A stretch of 64,000 bases of DNA from Escherichia coli (GCF_041248615.1 NZ_CP158426.1); one strand, 5' to 3'; positions 4,749 to 24,655 are shown, numbered from the stretch's first letter. The notes: generated by a model from the sequence alone, not told the origin. Translations and numbers: made by a program.

Positions 4749-7699
4749 CAGCGGTACTCCTTACGTTGTTTCTGAGCCAGCAGACGCTCCAGCATTTTTT
4801 CCAGCTCATGCAGACTCATATTCAGGGCACCAGTCAGTCCTGCAGGCGCTGTGGTTTCCCTGCCATTGAGGAAAAACTGAGGATTAAAGCTGACCTGGAT
4901 ACCACCAGACGTTCCACCGCCGGTTGCAGCTGCACCACGGCCTGAATATCCGGCAGTCAGGATTTCAGGCGAGGGGATACGGGGAACATCCGGTGTCATC
5001 TCATTTGCCAGACGTTGCCCTGGTAAAATCGATGCCCGGGTGGGGAGCGGAATAGCGGGCATGGAAGACAAACTATTGATTACGGCTCCGATCGCATTTT
5101 TAGCAGACGACATAAACACATTGATATCGGGCAACGGCATACTGAAGCGAACACCTGAAGTGTTATCCCGTATTTCTGGCCCCTGAATGCTCACGGGCAT
5201 TCTGGGGAGCAGTTCACTGGCCATTCGCTGCCCGGCCAGAGCTGCAAGCGGAGTGGTCCGCTGCAGGCCAATGGCGGCCCCCTGCGCGATATTGTCACCA
5301 AAGCCCATAAACACGCGGCTCGGCGAATGAATGCCCAGCTTTTCGCTGAACCAGCCACTGATGCTGTCGCCCATTCCGGTTACACTGGATTTGAGCGACT
5401 CCCATTTGTTTTTGATACCGTTAATCAGACCATCGACAAGATGGCCACCGAAGTCGGTAAACTTTGCCGGCAGATCAACACCAAGATATTTCAGCGCAGC
5501 TGCAAAGGCTTTATAGAGCAGACCTGCCGGCGACCAGTTAATCAGCAGCTTACCAGTTCCCGCGATACCGCCGTTAAAGGCTTCCTGAATGTCAGCCCAG
5601 CACTGTTTAAACCAGCTACTGATGCTGTCACCCATTCCGGTTACACTGGATTTGAGCGACCCCCATTTGTTTTTGATACCGTTAATCAGACCGTCGATAA
5701 GATGACCACCGAAGTCGGTGAACTTTGCCGGCAGAGTAACGCCGAAATATTTCAGCGCAGCCGCAAAGGCTTTATAGAGCAGACCTGCCGGCGACCAGTT
5801 AATCAGCAGCTTACCAGTTCCCGCGATACCGCCGTTAAAGGCTTCCTGAATGTCAGCCCAGCGCTGTTTAAACCAGCCACTGACTGCCCCCCAGTTGCGG
5901 TAGATAAGGTAAGCTGCTGCCGCGACAGCGGTGATAACGAGACCGATGGGATTCATCATCAGCGCACGTCCAATCCAGAGAACAGCACGTCCGGCGAGCA
6001 TAATTCCGCGAACCAGCCCCCCGGAGAGCACGCCACTCAGTGTTCTGGCTCCTCTGGCGACGGCGCTAAATCCGGTCACCAGCCAGCGGAGCTTACCGCC
6101 TTGCCCCAGTGCGAGCGACAGACGAAGCCAGTTGGCCCGAAGTAAAACAGCATTTTTCCAGACACTTACAAAGGGGGAAATAAGGAGATTCAGCCCCAGT
6201 TTGAGACCAACAGTCGCTATCTTAATCGCAAGGAGCGCACTGATGAGCTTAAAAGCCCCACTGACAAATTGCGGGTGAGTCGCTACCCAGTGTTTTGCCC
6301 CCTGAATGAGTGGAAGCAGTTCCTGAGTCAAAGAAATAAAAGATGGAGCTAATTGATCGCCCAGCGTAATTGCCAGATCGCGACTGCTGACCATAAGTGT
6401 TTTAGTGGCTTCAAGGGGAGATTTCAGCCGCTGATCATAAGCACTGGCAAGCAAATCGTTATCCGCAGCCCTGAGAGCACCGGCACGGATCTCTCGATAT
6501 CTGTCCATGTTGGCCAGCATCGGGCGGATAAATGCCATGACCTGCATATCCGCGAACATATCGCCCAGACCAAAGTTTTTCGCCAGAGCCTGAAGTGCCT
6601 CATCTCTTGCCGTATCATTCTTTATTTTCATGGCTGATTTGAAGCCGGCCAGCGCTTCGGGGCTTTTGGCATTGAGGTAACGTTCTATAACACTCAACAT
6701 CCCTTCAATCGGAGAGATCCCCGCAGCTTTATAACTCGCAATAGATCCCTGCAAATCAATACCCAGATCAGCAAACTGTTTCTGAGTATCGCGGGCAAAA
6801 ATTTTGGTAAGAAAGTTTTTAAAATTATTAGCTGCTTCGTCGGTGGAACCTGCACCGATTTTTGCTATCTGGAGACTGGCCCCGATTTCAGCAACAGCCT
6901 CTTTTCCACTGGCAATACCCGCCATCATTGGGGCCAGGGACTGCATCCACTTGACCTGATCCGGGATTTCAAATGACCCCTGGTCACCGGCATAAGCCAT
7001 AATATTCTGAACGGCACCAAAATCTCTGGCCGCACCTTTCAGGGAGTTTTGCCAGACTGCGGCCACTTTTGCCCAGTCCTGAGCAGACGTGCGTGTTGCC
7101 GTTGCCGCGCGGGCAATATCCGGCATCAGAAAACCGATATCTGACACATTATCAATATTGTCGCTGATGAGTGAACCCACCGCCTCCTGCAGCTCATCCT
7201 GATACTGATTGTATTTAAGCGCCCAGCCTTTTATCTGTCCGGCAAGTGCATCCCGCGTTTTATTGTCATATTTTGCGGTGATCGACATATCAATCATTTT
7301 GTCCTGAAAAGACATGGACTGCTGAACGGCAGGGGAAACCGTATGATAAACAGTCTGTGCCATGCCATACGCTTCAATCCCCTGACCATACAGCGCCATG
7401 CGGTTAGCTTTCAGCGCATCACTGGTAGCGGATGCCGCTGACAGACGGCGCTGCTGGCGCTCAATTTGCTCCATGGTGCGGCTTACCCGCAGCAGCTCGC
7501 TGTTGAGATGCTGCATCCGGGAAGAACCCAGTTGACCATAACGTTCTGTTGCACGGGTTAAAGCGTTCTGACGTTCCTGCAGGCGGCGTGAGGTATCGCT
7601 CAGGGAATCAAGCGCACGGCGGGTACCGCTCATTGCAGAACGGAATGTGCTGCCAATCATCCCGCCGATAACAACGCCGACTGAAAACTGTCCCGACAT
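4748..7699 (-). CDS. Tail tape measure protein
   Basis: 983-aa ORF with coiled-coil N-terminus, hydrophobic central segments and an internal 87-aa tandem duplication; follows the chaperone genes. Confidence 0.85.
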   Translation of the reverse strand: MSGQFSVGVVIGGMIGSTFRSAMSGTRRALDSLSDTSRRLQERQNALTRATERYGQLGSSRMQHLNSELLRVSRTMEQIERQQRRLSAASATSDALKANRMALYGQGIEAYGMAQTVYHTVSPAVQQSMSFQDKMIDMSITAKYDNKTRDALAGQIKGWALKYNQYQDELQEAVGSLISDNIDNVSDIGFLMPDIARAATATRTSAQDWAKVAAVWQNSLKGAARDFGAVQNIMAYAGDQGSFEIPDQVKWMQSLAPMMAGIASGKEAVAEIGASLQIAKIGAGSTDEAANNFKNFLTKIFARDTQKQFADLGIDLQGSIASYKAAGISPIEGMLSVIERYLNAKSPEALAGFKSAMKIKNDTARDEALQALAKNFGLGDMFADMQVMAFIRPMLANMDRYREIRAGALRAADNDLLASAYDQRLKSPLEATKTLMVSSRDLAITLGDQLAPSFISLTQELLPLIQGAKHWVATHPQFVSGAFKLISALLAIKIATVGLKLGLNLLISPFVSVWKNAVLLRANWLRLSLALGQGGKLRWLVTGFSAVARGARTLSGVLSGGLVRGIMLAGRAVLWIGRALMMNPIGLVITAVAAAAYLIYRNWGAVSGWFKQRWADIQEAFNGGIAGTGKLLINWSPAGLLYKAFAAALKYFGVTLPAKFTDFGGHLIDGLINGIKNKWGSLKSSVTGMGDSISSWFKQCWADIQEAFNGGIAGTGKLLINWSPAGLLYKAFAAALKYLGVDLPAKFTDFGGHLVDGLINGIKNKWESLKSSVTGMGDSISGWFSEKLGIHSPSRVFMGFGDNIAQGAAIGLQRTTPLAALAGQRMASELLPRMPVSIQGPEIRDNTSGVRFSMPLPDINVFMSSAKNAIGAVINSLSSMPAIPLPTRASILPGQRLANEMTPDVPRIPSPEILTAGYSGRGAAATGGGTSGGIQVSFNPQFFLNGRETTAPAGLTGALNMSLHELEKMLERLLAQKQRKEYR
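5330..5880. repeat. About 261-bp tandem duplication inside the tape measure gene (two copies plus the start of a third)
   Basis: Near-identical blocks beginning ccagccactgatgctgtc at about 5351 and 5612, partial at 5871; protein repeat WFKQ.WADIQEAFNGGIAGTGKLLINWSPAGLLYKAFAAALKY... twice. Confidence 0.85.
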
Positions 7700-23540: not shown

Positions 23541-23565
23541 ACCGGAAAGTACAGTGCTTTCCGGT
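23541..23565. terminator. Hairpin between the convergent methyltransferase and repressor genes
   Basis: accggaaag-tacagtg-ctttccggt inverted repeat; no strong U-tract, so a bidirectional stem rather than a classic intrinsic terminator. Confidence 0.4.
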
Positions 23566-23650: not shown

Positions 23651-24043
23651 TCAGCCTGCGAGTTTGCCTGGTTTTGGCTGAGTGAAGACTTTGCCGACGT
23701 CAAGAAATGAACGTTGTTGTTCTCTTGTCATTTTATCAAACGCAGCCACCAATTCTTGCTGATCATGAGAAAGTGGTTTAGTAGGTGGCACACTATCTTC
23801 CGTAAGAAACCTTGAACCGACACCTGTTAATAGCCAATTAATGTTTATACCCAACTGTGTACAAAGTTTTGTTAACCCCACAATATTCGGCTCACGAGCT
23901 CCATTCAAATAGCTTTGCGCAGTACGGTATGGCAGCTCACACGCTTCCGCAAACTCTTTGATAGATTTGATTTTCTTTTCTGTCAAAACTTCCTTCAAAC
24001 GTTCAGCAATACACATTTGCATCTCTTTTATTGCTTTATACAC
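23651..24043 (-). CDS. Phage repressor, HTH XRE/CI-type (c-like)
   Basis: 130-aa ORF with N-terminal HTH (IKEFAEACELPYRTAQSYLNG), transcribed divergently from the early operon. Confidence 0.75.
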   Translation of the reverse strand: MYKAIKEMQMCIAERLKEVLTEKKIKSIKEFAEACELPYRTAQSYLNGAREPNIVGLTKLCTQLGININWLLTGVGSRFLTEDSVPPTKPLSHDQQELVAAFDKMTREQQRSFLDVGKVFTQPKPGKLAG

Positions 24044-24046
24044 ATT

Positions 24047-24064
24047 TGTGTATATAATCTATCA
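24047..24064. promoter_or_regulatory. Candidate operator palindrome in the repressor/early divergent promoter region
   Basis: Perfect inverted repeat TATACACA-TT-TGTGTATA; partial copy acacatttg at 24012-24020. Confidence 0.5.
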
Positions 24065-24104
24065 CATATAACGCAAACATCATTACACCAAAAAGGAGGC
24101 AACA

Positions 24105-24293
24105 ATGACTGCAGACCAGGTCAAAGCCCATTTCCGCCGCAATGGGATCACCTTTACCCAGTGGGCAAAACAGAACAACTACACCAGAGCGGAGGTGTAC
24201 CGCGTTCTGAATGGTCAGGTAAAAGCGAACTACGGCAAAGCCCATGAAATCGCCGTCAAGCTGGGATTAAAAACCATCACTGACGCCGCTTAA
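24105..24293 (+). CDS. Small DNA-binding protein, Cro/Ner-like early regulator
   Basis: 62-aa ORF with RBS aaaggagg; HTH-like segment FTQWAKQNNYTRAEVYRVLNG; first gene of the early operon. Confidence 0.6.
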   Translation: MTADQVKAHFRRNGITFTQWAKQNNYTRAEVYRVLNGQVKANYGKAHEIAVKLGLKTITDAA

Positions 24294-24340
24294 AAAGATA
24301 CAGCATACGAAAAAGATTATCACATATTGAAAAAAGAGGT

Positions 24341-24655
24341 GTGCAGATGAGTAAGACGAATGTTTCAAGCTCCGGCAGTCGCATCCTCCGGGTACTTAAA
24401 GCGCTGCGTGGGCATGCCCTGAACGGTATTTCCAATGGTGAACTGGCAGCAGCACTGCACGAGTCACCGGCGAACATCAACCGGGCACTCAACACCCTCA
24501 TTGAAGAAGGGCTGGCTCTGAAACTGGAGAACGGACGTTTCGCACCGGGCATCCAGTTATTACAGATCGCCATGGCACACACTAATGAGATGGCACGAGC
24601 ACAGGATCGTATTAACGAAATCAACCAACGTGTCATTTCAGGTAGTCGTTTATAA
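24341..24655 (+). CDS. Winged-helix DNA-binding protein
   Basis: 104-aa ORF; wHTH-like segment ISNGELAAALHESPANINRALNTLIEEGL. Confidence 0.5.
   Translation: MQMSKTNVSSSGSRILRVLKALRGHALNGISNGELAAALHESPANINRALNTLIEEGLALKLENGRFAPGIQLLQIAMAHTNEMARAQDRINEINQRVISGSRL

What the first reader, a model, noticed from the sequence alone, without database searches (positions are those of the whole stretch)
24011..24064. Operator-like palindrome between repressor and early operon
A perfect inverted repeat TATACACA-TT-TGTGTATA (24047-24064) and a partial copy (acacatttg, 24012-24020) lie in the 60-bp divergent promoter region between the c-type repressor and the first early gene, within or just upstream of the repressor coding start. 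These are probable binding sites for the repressor and/or the Cro/Ner-like protein.
Basis: seen in the sequence. Interest (0 to 1): 0.4.

Follow-up and report, generated by a model that had tools for sequence, protein, structure and literature searches.

The report
Prophage repressor operator over early promoter
An 18-bp palindrome in a Mu-like (BcepMu/B3-type) prophage of E. coli is very probably the main docking site where the phage's own repressor blocks the promoter of the lytic genes; this is an ordinary kind of switch element, but comparison with relatives supports it unusually well.

Summary
TATACACA-TT-TGTGTATA lies at 24037-24054, not 24047-24064. The partial copy is an exact 11-nt repeat, ATACACATTTG, at 24009-24019, over the repressor ATG.

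The window is a BcepMu/B3-like transposable prophage of E. coli NRZ14408. The palindrome fills the 16-bp spacer of the early promoter (TTGCTT-N16-TATAAT) ahead of the gp16-family gene.

Related loci carry about 18 different repressor DNA-binding domains. In most of them the same spacer holds a different dyad. Dyad arms follow the repressor domain (Mantel 0/2000), not gp16: identical gp16 proteins sit beside unrelated dyads.

Homology with heteroimmune relatives stops at 23740/23758 and resumes exactly at 24054. The binding domain and its sites are therefore swapped as one cassette of about 300 bp. Within this immunity type the arms TATACAC/GTGTATA are invariant, apart from one substitution in two near-identical strains, and the centre varies.

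A second site recurs 29-34 bp to the left. In several types a third site lies inside the repressor gene (here 23846-23863).

Verdict: this is the primary operator of the adjacent Cro/C1-type repressor and it occludes the early promoter. It is not the gp16 site. It is a known kind of element, and I found no published description of operators for this phage group.

The parts
24037..24054 (.). O1: the primary operator, TATACAC-ATTT-GTGTATA. It is an 18-bp dyad written as a perfect 8+2+8 palindrome.
   Evidence: locate it. It fills the Pe spacer and its last 2 bp overlap the -10. In type-A relatives the arms are invariant while the centre varies (ATTT/GTTT/GATT). It is the right-hand end of the immunity cassette.
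24008..24025 (.). O2: an auxiliary half-site with core ATACACATTTG at 24009-24019. Its centre lies 29 bp left of the O1 centre and it overlaps the repressor start codon (CAT 24014-24016).
   Evidence: D5 and locate it. ATACACATT is invariant in 8 type-A sequences while the flanks diverge. An equivalent site lies 29-34 bp left of O1 in many other immunity types, and the cross-type permutation test gave 0/20000.
23846..23863 (.). O3 (candidate distal operator): TATACCC-AACT-GTGTACA, 12 of 14 arm positions matching O1. It lies 191 bp left of O1 inside the repressor coding sequence (codons C-T-Q-L-G-I).
   Evidence: Searches find it. It is present in all type-A lineages and its left arm is invariant. 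Own-type matches at -176 to -277 occur in several other types, and the cross-type permutation test gave 0/20000. The synonymous-site test is only marginal (p about 0.05-0.07).
24031..24036 (+). -35 hexamer of the early promoter Pe (TTGCTT).
   Evidence: It is conserved as TTGCTT/TTGCTA in type-A relatives. Relatives have TTGACA-like hexamers at the same place. With 3 of 6 matches it falls below the threshold of the tool's own promoter scan.
24053..24058 (+). -10 hexamer of Pe (TATAAT). The predicted transcription start is about 24064-24066.
   Evidence: An xATAAT hexamer is conserved at this position in the enterobacterial-type loci. Homology with heteroimmune relatives resumes at 24054. The transcription start has not been mapped.
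23651..24016 (-). Repressor gene (121 aa). The model shows an N-terminal five-helix Cro/C1 HTH domain (residues 3-64), a linker, two C-terminal helices (84-112) and a short tail.
   Evidence: PGAP CDS. Pfam HTH_3/HTH_19/HTH_26. PHROGs transcriptional repressor families. AlphaFold2 model, mean pLDDT 75.9. The fold is close to the P22 c2, 434, SinR and DdrO DNA-binding domains.
23741..24053 (.). Exchangeable immunity cassette. It holds the repressor DNA-binding domain codons, O3, O2, O1 and the Pe -35.
   Evidence: BLASTN against heteroimmune relatives: homology of 90-95% stops at 23740 (L003) or 23758 (L007-9) and resumes at 24054.
24105..24293 (+). First early gene, a 62-aa HTH protein of the BcepMu gp16 family. 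Its homologue in B3 is ORF17, which occupies the position of the gene called 'ner-like' in B3-type phages.
   Evidence: TIGR04111, E = 1.2e-27. phrog_925. Synteny with phage B3 ORF17/ORF18.
24056..24064 (-). Candidate extended -10 (TGaTAGATT) of a proximal repressor promoter. It overlaps the Pe -10 and predicts a start near 24049, inside O1. This is a hypothesis.
   Evidence: The TGnTAnnnT pattern is kept in register in the enterobacterial-type loci even where the sequence differs (TGTTATATT, TGACATTAT). The same bases could instead be conserved as the Pe start site (CA).

Best explanation
The 18-bp dyad at 24037-24054 (O1) is the primary operator of the divergently encoded 121-aa Cro/C1-type repressor (23651-24016).

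How it most likely works:
- A repressor dimer binds the two 7-bp arms TATACAC / GTGTATA. The four central bases are not read.
- O1 occupies the whole 16-bp spacer of the early promoter Pe (TTGCTT-N16-TATAAT) and the first two bases of its -10. A bound repressor therefore excludes RNA polymerase and silences the early operon: gp16, an IclR-HTH gene, a DUF3102 gene, the rve transposase and the ExeA/MuB-like gene.
- A half-site 29 bp to the left (O2), over the repressor's own start codon, probably helps through cooperative binding and/or looping. A weaker dyad 191 bp to the left inside the repressor gene (O3) may do the same. Together they would give negative autoregulation.
- The conserved two-helix C-terminal module is the likely oligomerisation surface.

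What is shown: the position of the sites, the co-variation with the repressor domain, and the cassette exchange. What is inferred: binding itself, cooperativity and looping, the promoter start sites, and the location of the repressor's own promoter.
For: 1. Position. The dyad lies between TTGCTT (24031-36) and TATAAT (24053-58). In 38 of 60 unique related upstream regions the best dyad is centred 7.5-9 bp upstream of the -10 of a strong sigma-70 promoter, mostly with 10.5-11.5 of 12 matches and a 17-bp spacer.
2. Type specificity. About 18 immunity types each have their own dyad in that spacer. Examples are TGCTCATAATTATGAGCA, ATGAGAAC-AATA-GTTCTCAT, TGTCTAAATTTTTAGACA, TATCCCATTTATGGGATA and GTGATCTATAGATCAC. 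Phage B3 has GGTGCAATATTTGGCACC.
3. Co-variation. Arm identity follows repressor-domain identity (Spearman 0.35, Mantel 0/2000). Pairs with domain identity of 60% or more share 91% of arm positions. Pairs with gp16 at least 90% identical but domains below 40% share 29%.
4. Cassette. Homology with heteroimmune relatives breaks at 23740/23758 and resumes at 24054, the right edge of O1.
5. Footprint within the type. In 8 type-A sequences whose three deep lineages are only about 68-73% identical across the gene, the arms are invariant and the centre varies. The predicted recognition helix LPYRTAQSYLNG is identical.
6. Extra sites. Each type's own motif matches the zones left of O1 better than other types' motifs do. 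O2 zone: 4.11 vs 6.62 mismatches, 0/20000. O3 zone: 4.28 vs 5.37, 0/20000. A control zone to the right of Pe shows no signal, p = 0.2.
7. Protein. It has a Cro/C1 HTH. The model superposes on the P22 c2 DNA-binding domain (TM 0.87, rmsd 1.4 A) and on 434 repressor, which from established knowledge bind 14-18-bp dyads as dimers.
8. Precedent. In the B3-type phage Fc02 the repressor and ner-like genes are divergent. Overlapping pC2/pE promoters lie in a 106-bp gap, and repressor inactivation switches on pE (PMC9936078).
Against: - There are no binding, footprint or transcription-start data for this phage or any close relative.
- The window's Pe has a weak -35 (3 of 6), and the tool's own promoter scan did not list it.
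- Perfect 8-bp-arm palindromes occur about a dozen times in the window, so the case rests on position and comparison, not on symmetry.
- O2 is only a half-site here: 5 of 14 arm positions mismatch a full dyad.
- O3 lies in a protein-conserved stretch. The excess conservation at synonymous sites is marginal (p about 0.05-0.07), its right arm varies, and many immunity types show no convincing O3.
- The co-variation is not perfect. L046 carries a dyad like type B (TGCTCA..TGAGCA) next to a domain whose recognition helix resembles type E.
- If the proximal repressor promoter really starts inside O1, how repressor synthesis continues in a lysogen is unresolved.
Confidence: 0.85

Rival explanations
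1. The palindrome is the binding site of the small first early protein (gp16, the 'Cro/Ner-like' protein), either alone or shared with the repressor as lambda Cro shares OR.
For: gp16 is a small HTH protein encoded immediately downstream. In lambda-type switches, from established knowledge, Cro and the repressor share operators. In the literature on B3-type phages the first gene of the early operon is called ner-like and is assumed to turn off repressor transcription.
Against: Identical gp16 proteins accompany unrelated dyads: WIN vs L007-9, and L003 vs L004/L006. Across 48 loci, arm identity does not follow gp16 identity (Spearman 0.05; 72 pairs with gp16 at least 90% identical share only 29% of arm positions). 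The gp16 gene lies in the conserved backbone, outside the exchanged cassette. Any specific gp16 site is more likely to lie in the conserved sequence to the right of the -10 (24056-24104).
Confidence: 0.05
2. The palindrome is a chance feature of an AT-rich promoter region with no specific protein partner.
For: Perfect 8-bp-arm inverted repeats are not rare in the window: 17 hits at about 12 places. The arms are AT-rich and overlap TATA-like promoter sequence.
Against: About 0.009 would be expected in this 88-bp gap (my arithmetic). There is an exact 11-nt second copy 29 bp away and a 15/18 copy 191 bp away, against 0.03 expected per window. The arms are invariant across lineages about 70% identical while the centre drifts. 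Independent dyads occupy the same promoter position in about 18 immunity types.
Confidence: 0.02
3. The palindrome acts at the nucleic-acid level, as an RNA hairpin, terminator or attenuator in a leftward repressor transcript, or as a cruciform.
For: It folds into a 7-bp stem at -6.4 kcal/mol, z = -3.4 against shuffles. It would lie in the leader of the repressor mRNA if that transcript starts to its right.
Against: The hairpin is weak and all AT/GT-rich. No T-run follows on either strand and no terminator call covers it. No Rfam family matches. Related types keep dyad symmetry while the centre varies from 2 to 6 bases, and several are only imperfect dyads (GGTG..CACC types), which fits protein half-sites better than stems.
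Confidence: 0.02
4. It is a Mu-style multifunctional operator that also serves as a transposition enhancer bound by the transposase, or as a host-factor (IHF) site.
For: The element is a transposable prophage with an rve transposase and a MuB-like ATPase just downstream. In Mu, from established knowledge, the operator region doubles as the internal activation sequence.
Against: The repressor shows no meaningful similarity to the transposase N-terminus, unlike Mu c and MuA. The dyad changes completely between relatives that otherwise share 82-92% DNA identity downstream through the early genes, so a conserved transposase or host factor could not read it.
Confidence: 0.03

Closest known systems
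P22 c2 / 434 repressor operators (lambdoid Cro/C1-type dyad operators)
   Same: Both have a five-helix Cro/C1 HTH domain; the model superposes on P22 c2 at TM 0.87. Both use an 18-bp dyad with conserved outer arms and a free centre that overlaps the core of the lytic promoter, next to a divergent repressor gene. In both, operator and binding domain define the immunity type.
   Different: There is no S24 peptidase/RecA-cleavage domain; the C-terminus is a short two-helix module. There is no tripartite OR with three equal sites: here there is one perfect dyad, one half-site and one distal weak site. The small early protein does not share the operator specificity. The host element is a transposable phage.
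Lysis-lysogeny region of B3-type transposable Pseudomonas phages (B3, Fc02; PMC9936078)
   Same: The gene order is homologous: a P22-c2-like repressor lies divergent from the gp16 homologue ORF17, followed by a regulator and a DUF3102 gene. The gap is short (85-106 bp) and is reported to hold overlapping pC2/pE promoters. B3 has the same design, TTGACA-GGTGCAATATTTGGCAC-CACTAT.
   Different: The paper as read predicts promoters but defines no operators. The window's cassette and dyad sequence are different. Whether this prophage has a distal pC1-like maintenance promoter is unknown; the candidates are not above chance.
TP901-1 CI switch with OR, OL and OD (PMC7250872)
   Same: There are three dyad operators: one over the lytic promoter, one near the divergent repressor promoter, and one distal inside a coding sequence. 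The topology is conserved among relatives although the operator sequences differ. The repressor is an N-terminal HTH domain plus a helical oligomerisation module.
   Different: The distal site here lies in the repressor's own gene, not in the lytic gene. There is no significant sequence relationship: the TP901-1 CI N-terminal domain is only a weak fold hit, rank 34. Hexamer formation and any MOR-like anti-repressor role for gp16 are untested.
Phage Mu c repressor / Ner with O1-O2-O3
   Same: Both are transposable phages in which a repressor is divergent from an early operon that begins with a small DNA-binding protein and continues to the transposase and its ATPase partner. In both, several operators spread over about 200 bp.
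   Different: The repressor is XRE-type, not Mu-c-type, and is unrelated to the transposase N-terminus. gp16 gave no Mu Ner family hit. The operators here are short dyads, not Mu-type repeats.

Membership tests
Dyad operator of a Cro/C1 (XRE)-type temperate-phage repressor | Two-fold symmetric site of about 14-18 bp with conserved arms and a tolerant centre | tested here: met
   The arms TATACAC/GTGTATA are perfect. They are invariant in 8 type-A sequences while the centre is ATTT, GTTT or GATT.
Dyad operator of a Cro/C1 (XRE)-type temperate-phage repressor | Overlaps core elements of the promoter it controls | tested here: met
   At the sequence level only. The site fills the spacer of TTGCTT-N16-TATAAT and overlaps 2 bp of the -10. 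The same position holds in relatives with near-consensus promoters. The transcription start is not mapped.
Dyad operator of a Cro/C1 (XRE)-type temperate-phage repressor | Cognate HTH repressor encoded next to it | tested here: met
   A divergent 121-aa protein carries HTH_3/19/26 domains. The model is close to the P22 c2, 434 and SinR DNA-binding domains.
Dyad operator of a Cro/C1 (XRE)-type temperate-phage repressor | Operator sequence changes together with the repressor's DNA-binding domain in heteroimmune relatives | tested here: met
   Mantel 0/2000. There is 91% arm identity when the domains are at least 60% identical, against 30% when they are below 40%. The cassette boundaries are 23740/58 and 24054. 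One exception is L046.
Dyad operator of a Cro/C1 (XRE)-type temperate-phage repressor | Further copies nearby that allow cooperative binding | tested here: inconclusive
   O2 is a half-site and O3 matches 12 of 14 arm positions. The family-wide signal is significant, but the window's O2 is half a site and the conservation of O3 is confounded by coding.
Dyad operator of a Cro/C1 (XRE)-type temperate-phage repressor | Physical, sequence-specific binding by the repressor and loss of repression on mutation | not testable with these tools
   This needs EMSA or footprinting and reporter assays.
Lambda cI / LexA-like cleavable repressor system | C-terminal S24 peptidase domain for RecA-stimulated self-cleavage | tested here: not met
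   There is no Peptidase_S24 hit. The C-terminus is two short helices plus a tail.
Mu-type operator region (Mu c / Ner / enhancer) | Repressor homologous to Mu c and to the transposase N-terminal DNA-binding domain | tested here: not met
   The repressor is an XRE-type HTH protein. BLASTP against the transposase gives only an 8/17 chance-level match.
Mu-type operator region (Mu c / Ner / enhancer) | First early gene is a Ner-family protein | tested here: not met
   The Pfam scan at E <= 0.01 gave only weak HTH_31/HTH_7 hits and no Ner-family hit. NCBIfam assigns TIGR04111, BcepMu gp16.
Binding site of the gp16 (Cro/Ner-like) protein | Site sequence tracks the protein that reads it | tested here: not met
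   Identical gp16 proteins sit beside unrelated dyads. Spearman 0.05, Mantel 204/2000.
Rho-independent terminator / structured RNA | Stable GC-rich stem followed by a U-run, or a match to a curated RNA family | tested here: not met
   The fold is -6.4 kcal/mol with an AT-rich stem and no T-run. The terminator scan does not call it. There is no Rfam match at E <= 1.
TP901-1-type three-operator switch | Lytic-promoter operator, central operator and distal intragenic operator bound by a multimerising CI | tested here: inconclusive
   The topology is similar, but the distal site lies in the repressor gene. The oligomeric state is unknown, and the fold similarity to the CI N-terminal domain is only weak.

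The most novel reading that the evidence does not exclude
The DNA-binding domain, the Pe -35 and all three sites form a self-contained plug-in immunity cassette of about 300 bp. Its right edge is the last base of O1. Its distal operator is written into the repressor's own coding sequence and loops to O1/O2 for autoregulation. The conserved backbone supplies the -10, the leader, gp16 and gp16's own conserved target. The phage group would then be a natural library of at least 18 orthogonal repressor/operator pairs on one common promoter chassis.
Probability: 0.35. Interest if true: 0.45.

Novelty: new member of a known kind. Interest (0 to 1): 0.3.

Why it matters
It gives a concrete, testable map of the lysis-lysogeny switch of the BcepMu/B3-type transposable prophages. 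The gp16 region matches in 577 of 5426 complete E. coli genomes, including ST131 strains. I found no description of their operators in the papers searched.

The map separates what the repressor reads, which is the cassette-borne dyads, from what the conserved small early protein could read, which is backbone sequence. It predicts superinfection-immunity groups directly from an 18-bp sequence. This immunity type is rare, present in 5 of 5426 genomes.

It also points to a set of naturally orthogonal repressor/operator pairs that share one promoter scaffold, which could be useful for circuit design. As biology it is an expected kind of element, not a surprise.

Tried and rejected
- Terminator or RNA structure: weak hairpin, no T-run, no Rfam hit.
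- Mu-style link between repressor and transposase: no similarity.
- Repressor promoter -10 TATAAA (24040-24035, minus strand): it is conserved only because it overlaps O1 and the -35, and it would give a 12-nt leader. It is less plausible than the conserved extended -10 TGaTAGATT, which itself remains a hypothesis.
- Leftward promoter-like site TGCACA-N18-GATAAT at 24345-24316 as a distal repressor promoter: the number of such sites is not above shuffles, and the -10 becomes GATAAC in L003 and L005.
- The 9-bp inverted repeat TGATAGATT / AATCTATCA (23959-67 / 24056-64; I3): not conserved in L087, so taken as chance.
- Synonymous-site constraint on O3: only marginal (4 of 6 codons against a 30% baseline, p = 0.07; 3 of 5 against 19%, p about 0.05).
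- Sequence search of the repressor and gp16 against solved structures: nothing informative.
- Literature search for BcepMu-type operators: none found.
- The first attempt at search for related loci failed for lack of a slot and was repeated.
- L091, found with the operator pattern, is an unrelated chance match in a coding region.

Full report
**Observation**

Reading the window and the repeat finder (I5) place the perfect inverted repeat TATACACA-TT-TGTGTATA at 24037-24054. The arms are 8 bp and cannot be extended.

The 'partial copy' is an exact 11-nt direct repeat, ATACACATTTG, at 24009-24019 and 24038-24048, 29 bp apart (D5).

A pattern search with mismatches found one more site in the whole 64-kb window. 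TATACCCAACTGTGTACA at 23846-23863 matches 15 of 18 positions and 12 of 14 arm positions. Shuffles predict 0.03 such matches per window.

Perfect 8-bp-arm palindromes as such are not rare here: there are about 12 places. Symmetry alone proves nothing. Position and repetition are what stand out.

**Context**

The window is 100% identical to the chromosome of E. coli NRZ14408, NZ_LT599825.1. The annotated genes around the site are:
- a DNA adenine methylase
- a leftward 121-aa HTH protein, 23651-24016
- a rightward 62-aa DNA-binding protein, 24105-24293
- an IclR-HTH protein
- a DUF3102 protein
- a DDE (rve) transposase
- an ExeA-family ATPase

The closest phage record, PhiKM, is classified as a Bcepmuvirus.

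The leftward protein carries Cro/C1-type HTH domains and hits PHROGs repressor families. The 62-aa protein is TIGR04111, 'BcepMu gp16 family' (E = 1.2e-27). It is not detectably a Mu Ner family member.

Phage B3 has the homologous arrangement: ORF18, 'similar to P22 c2 repressor', lies divergent from ORF17, the gp16 homologue.

The conserved start of the repressor is ATG 24016. The upstream ATG at 24022 is absent in L047 and L087, and PGAP chooses 24016. The intergenic gap is therefore 88 bp. O1 lies 21 bp upstream of the start codon and the 11-nt copy covers it.

**Promoter**

The palindrome lies between TTGCTT (24031-36) and a consensus TATAAT (24053-58), with a 16-bp spacer. It fills the spacer and overlaps the first two bases of the -10.

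The tool's own promoter scan did not list this site, because the -35 has only 3 of 6 matches. My scan of the homologous position in relatives did find promoters there. They are mostly TTGACA-like, with a 17-bp spacer, xATAAT and 10.5-11.5 of 12 matches. The best dyad is centred 7.5-9 bp upstream of the -10 in 38 of 60 unique sequences.

**Comparative evidence**

Searching IMG/VR with gp16 gave 80 loci. E. coli genomes and phage records added more. To the right of the -10, the sequence ATAATCTAnCACAnATAA..CAAACATCATTGCA is conserved across the enterobacterial-type loci. To the left of it, the sequence falls into about 18 unrelated classes, and most have their own (near-)palindrome in the spacer. 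B3 has GGTGCAATATTTGGCACC between TTGACA and CACTAT.

Which protein reads the dyad follows from which protein it tracks.
- The window's gp16 is 62/62 identical to that of L007-L009. Their repressor shares only the C-terminal 66 residues (44%) and their dyad is TGTCTAAATTTTTAGACA.
- L003 and L004 have identical gp16 but repressors only 33% identical, and different dyads.
- L045 and L047 have gp16 only 73% identical to the window's, yet their repressors are about 70% identical and the arms are the same.
- Over 48 unique loci, arm identity correlates with repressor-domain identity (Spearman 0.35, Mantel 0/2000) and not with gp16 identity (0.05, 204/2000).

BLASTN shows that homology with heteroimmune relatives (90-95%) stops at 23740 (L003) or 23758 (L007-9) and resumes at 24054, which is the last base of the palindrome. 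So the DNA-binding domain, O3, O2, O1 and the Pe -35 travel together as one cassette of about 300 bp. The -10, the leader and gp16 belong to the backbone.

**Within the immunity type**

Eight type-A sequences fall into three deep lineages only about 68-73% identical across the gene. They keep TATACAC...GTGTATA exactly, while the centre is ATTT, GTTT or GATT. They also keep ATACACATT of O2 while its flanks drift. The predicted recognition helix (LPYRTAQSYLNG) is identical.

The only difference in the 321-bp cassette between the window and two near-identical strains is T to C at 24051, in the right arm of O1.

This type is rare: 5 of 5426 complete E. coli genomes. The gp16 region as a whole matches in 577.

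**Additional sites**

Scanning each type with its own O1 showed a second site 29-34 bp to the left, usually over the repressor start codon. In several types there is a third site 176-277 bp to the left, inside the repressor gene. For example, type B has TGCTCA-N6-TGAGCA with perfect arms in two diverged members, L004 has AGTGCAGATAACTGCACT, and L020 has a copy with 2 mismatches.

I ran a permutation test that assigns the motifs to the wrong loci, which preserves composition and coding constraints.
- O2 zone: 4.11 vs 6.62 arm mismatches, 0/20000.
- O3 zone: 4.28 vs 5.37 arm mismatches, 0/20000.
- Control zone to the right of Pe: no signal, p = 0.2.

For the window itself, O2 is only a half-site. 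The conservation of O3 is confounded by a conserved peptide (KLCTQLGIN). Invariant synonymous codons are enriched only marginally (4 of 6 against 30%, p = 0.07; 3 of 5 against 19%, p about 0.05, with the longest run of invariant synonymous codons in the gene at L-G-I-N). I rate O2 as probable and O3 as possible.

**Protein**

An AlphaFold2 model was built on an alignment of 11 repressors that share the C-terminal module (mean pLDDT 75.9). It shows a five-helix N-terminal domain (3-64), a disordered linker, two helices (84-94 and 98-112) and a tail. Foldseek places the N-terminal domain next to P22 c2 (TM 0.87), 434 repressor/Cro, SinR and DdrO. From established knowledge these are dimeric readers of short dyads, and SinR and DdrO have helical C-terminal oligomerisation domains.

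There is no S24 peptidase domain. The C-terminal module is shared by at least 7 different binding-domain types, and at least two other C-terminal modules exist.

**Mechanism**

A repressor dimer on O1 sterically excludes RNA polymerase from Pe. This step is inferred from position and is strongly supported by the comparisons.

O2 and O3 probably add cooperativity or looping through the C-terminal helices and limit repressor expression. This step is inferred.

The repressor's own promoter is unresolved. A conserved extended -10 (TGnTAGATT, 24064 to 24056 on the minus strand) overlaps the Pe -10 and would start transcription near 24049, inside O1. That promoter would then be auto-repressed and mutually exclusive with Pe. 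This fits the published picture for the B3-type phage Fc02. There the proximal pC2 overlaps pE in a 106-bp gap and is active only after repressor inactivation, while a distal pC1 maintains repressor transcription in the lysogen (PMC9936078). However, the same bases could be conserved simply as the Pe start site. Candidate distal leftward promoters in the window are not above chance and are poorly conserved.

**Rivals**

- A gp16 site is contradicted by co-variation.
- A chance palindrome is contradicted by repetition, conservation and the family-wide pattern.
- An RNA hairpin or terminator is contradicted by weak energy, no T-run, no Rfam match and variable centres.
- A Mu-like enhancer or host-factor site is contradicted by type specificity next to a conserved downstream backbone and by the lack of similarity between repressor and transposase.

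**Comparison and novelty**

Functionally this is a lambdoid-style dyad operator (P22/434 class) inside a transposable phage whose gene layout resembles Mu. Its three-site topology is reminiscent of TP901-1 OR/OL/OD (PMC7250872), except that the distal site lies in the repressor's own gene. It is not a Mu-type operator. It is not a cleavable cI system.

The searchable literature gave no description of operators for BcepMu/B3-type phages. This is a new, well-supported member of a known kind of element, not a new kind. Overall interest is modest, at 0.3. The cassette logic and the natural set of orthogonal repressor/operator pairs are the most useful by-products.

Noticed in passing
window 24060-24069 and 24318-24327: There is an exact 10-nt direct repeat, TATCACATAT. 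One copy sits just after the Pe -10, around the predicted start. The other lies 29 nt before the ATG of the third gene (IclR-HTH, 24347). The second copy is conserved as (G)TTATCACATAT in one subgroup of relatives and replaced by GTTTCATATATAG in another. It is backbone sequence, not cassette, so it is a candidate target for gp16 or for the IclR-like protein. It remains unexplained.
   Followed up: partly
window 24051 (L089 = NZ_CP029747.1; also NZ_CP041996.1): Two otherwise near-identical prophages (99.7% over the 321-bp cassette) differ from the window by a single T to C change. It falls in the right arm of O1 (GTGTATA to GTGCATA). This may be a natural operator variant.
   Followed up: partly
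window 23651-23760 (repressor residues about 84-121): The C-terminal two-helix module plus the QPKPGKLAG tail is shared by repressors with at least 7 unrelated DNA-binding domains. At least two alternative C-terminal modules exist in the family, so the domains are shuffled. The function of this module (oligomerisation, or a protease or anti-repressor target) is unknown.
   Followed up: partly
window 24316-24345, minus strand: There is a leftward promoter-like site, TGCACA-N18-GATAAT with an upstream TG, between gp16 and gene 3. It would run antisense through gp16 into the repressor gene, like lambda PRE or Fc02 pC1. The -10 is GATAAC in L003 and L005, and such hits are not above chance, so support is weak.
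   Followed up: partly
L046 (IMGVR_UViG_2576861014_000008), about 90 bp upstream of gp16: This locus is an exception to the co-variation. Its dyad, TGCTCAAAATATTGAGCA, resembles type B. Its repressor's recognition-helix region (ARNTIYNWMAKGN) resembles type E, whose dyad is TGTCTAAATTTTTAGACA.
   Followed up: no
window 23541-23565: A terminator-like hairpin (ACCGGAAAG...CTTTCCGGT followed by a T-rich tail on the minus strand) lies between the convergent 3' ends of the methylase gene and the repressor gene.
   Followed up: no
L090 (phage B3, NC_006548.1) 1350-1434: The archetype phage B3 shows the same design: TTGACA-GGTGCAATATTTGGCAC-CACTAT. A related second site (GTGATTTTTCTGTCACC) lies over the GTG start of its repressor ORF18.
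   Followed up: partly
L091 (IMGVR_UViG_3300044698_000063) 5317-5338: The operator pattern TATACAC-N4-GTGTATATAAT also occurs once in an unrelated viral contig, inside what looks like coding sequence. I took this as a chance match.
   Followed up: no
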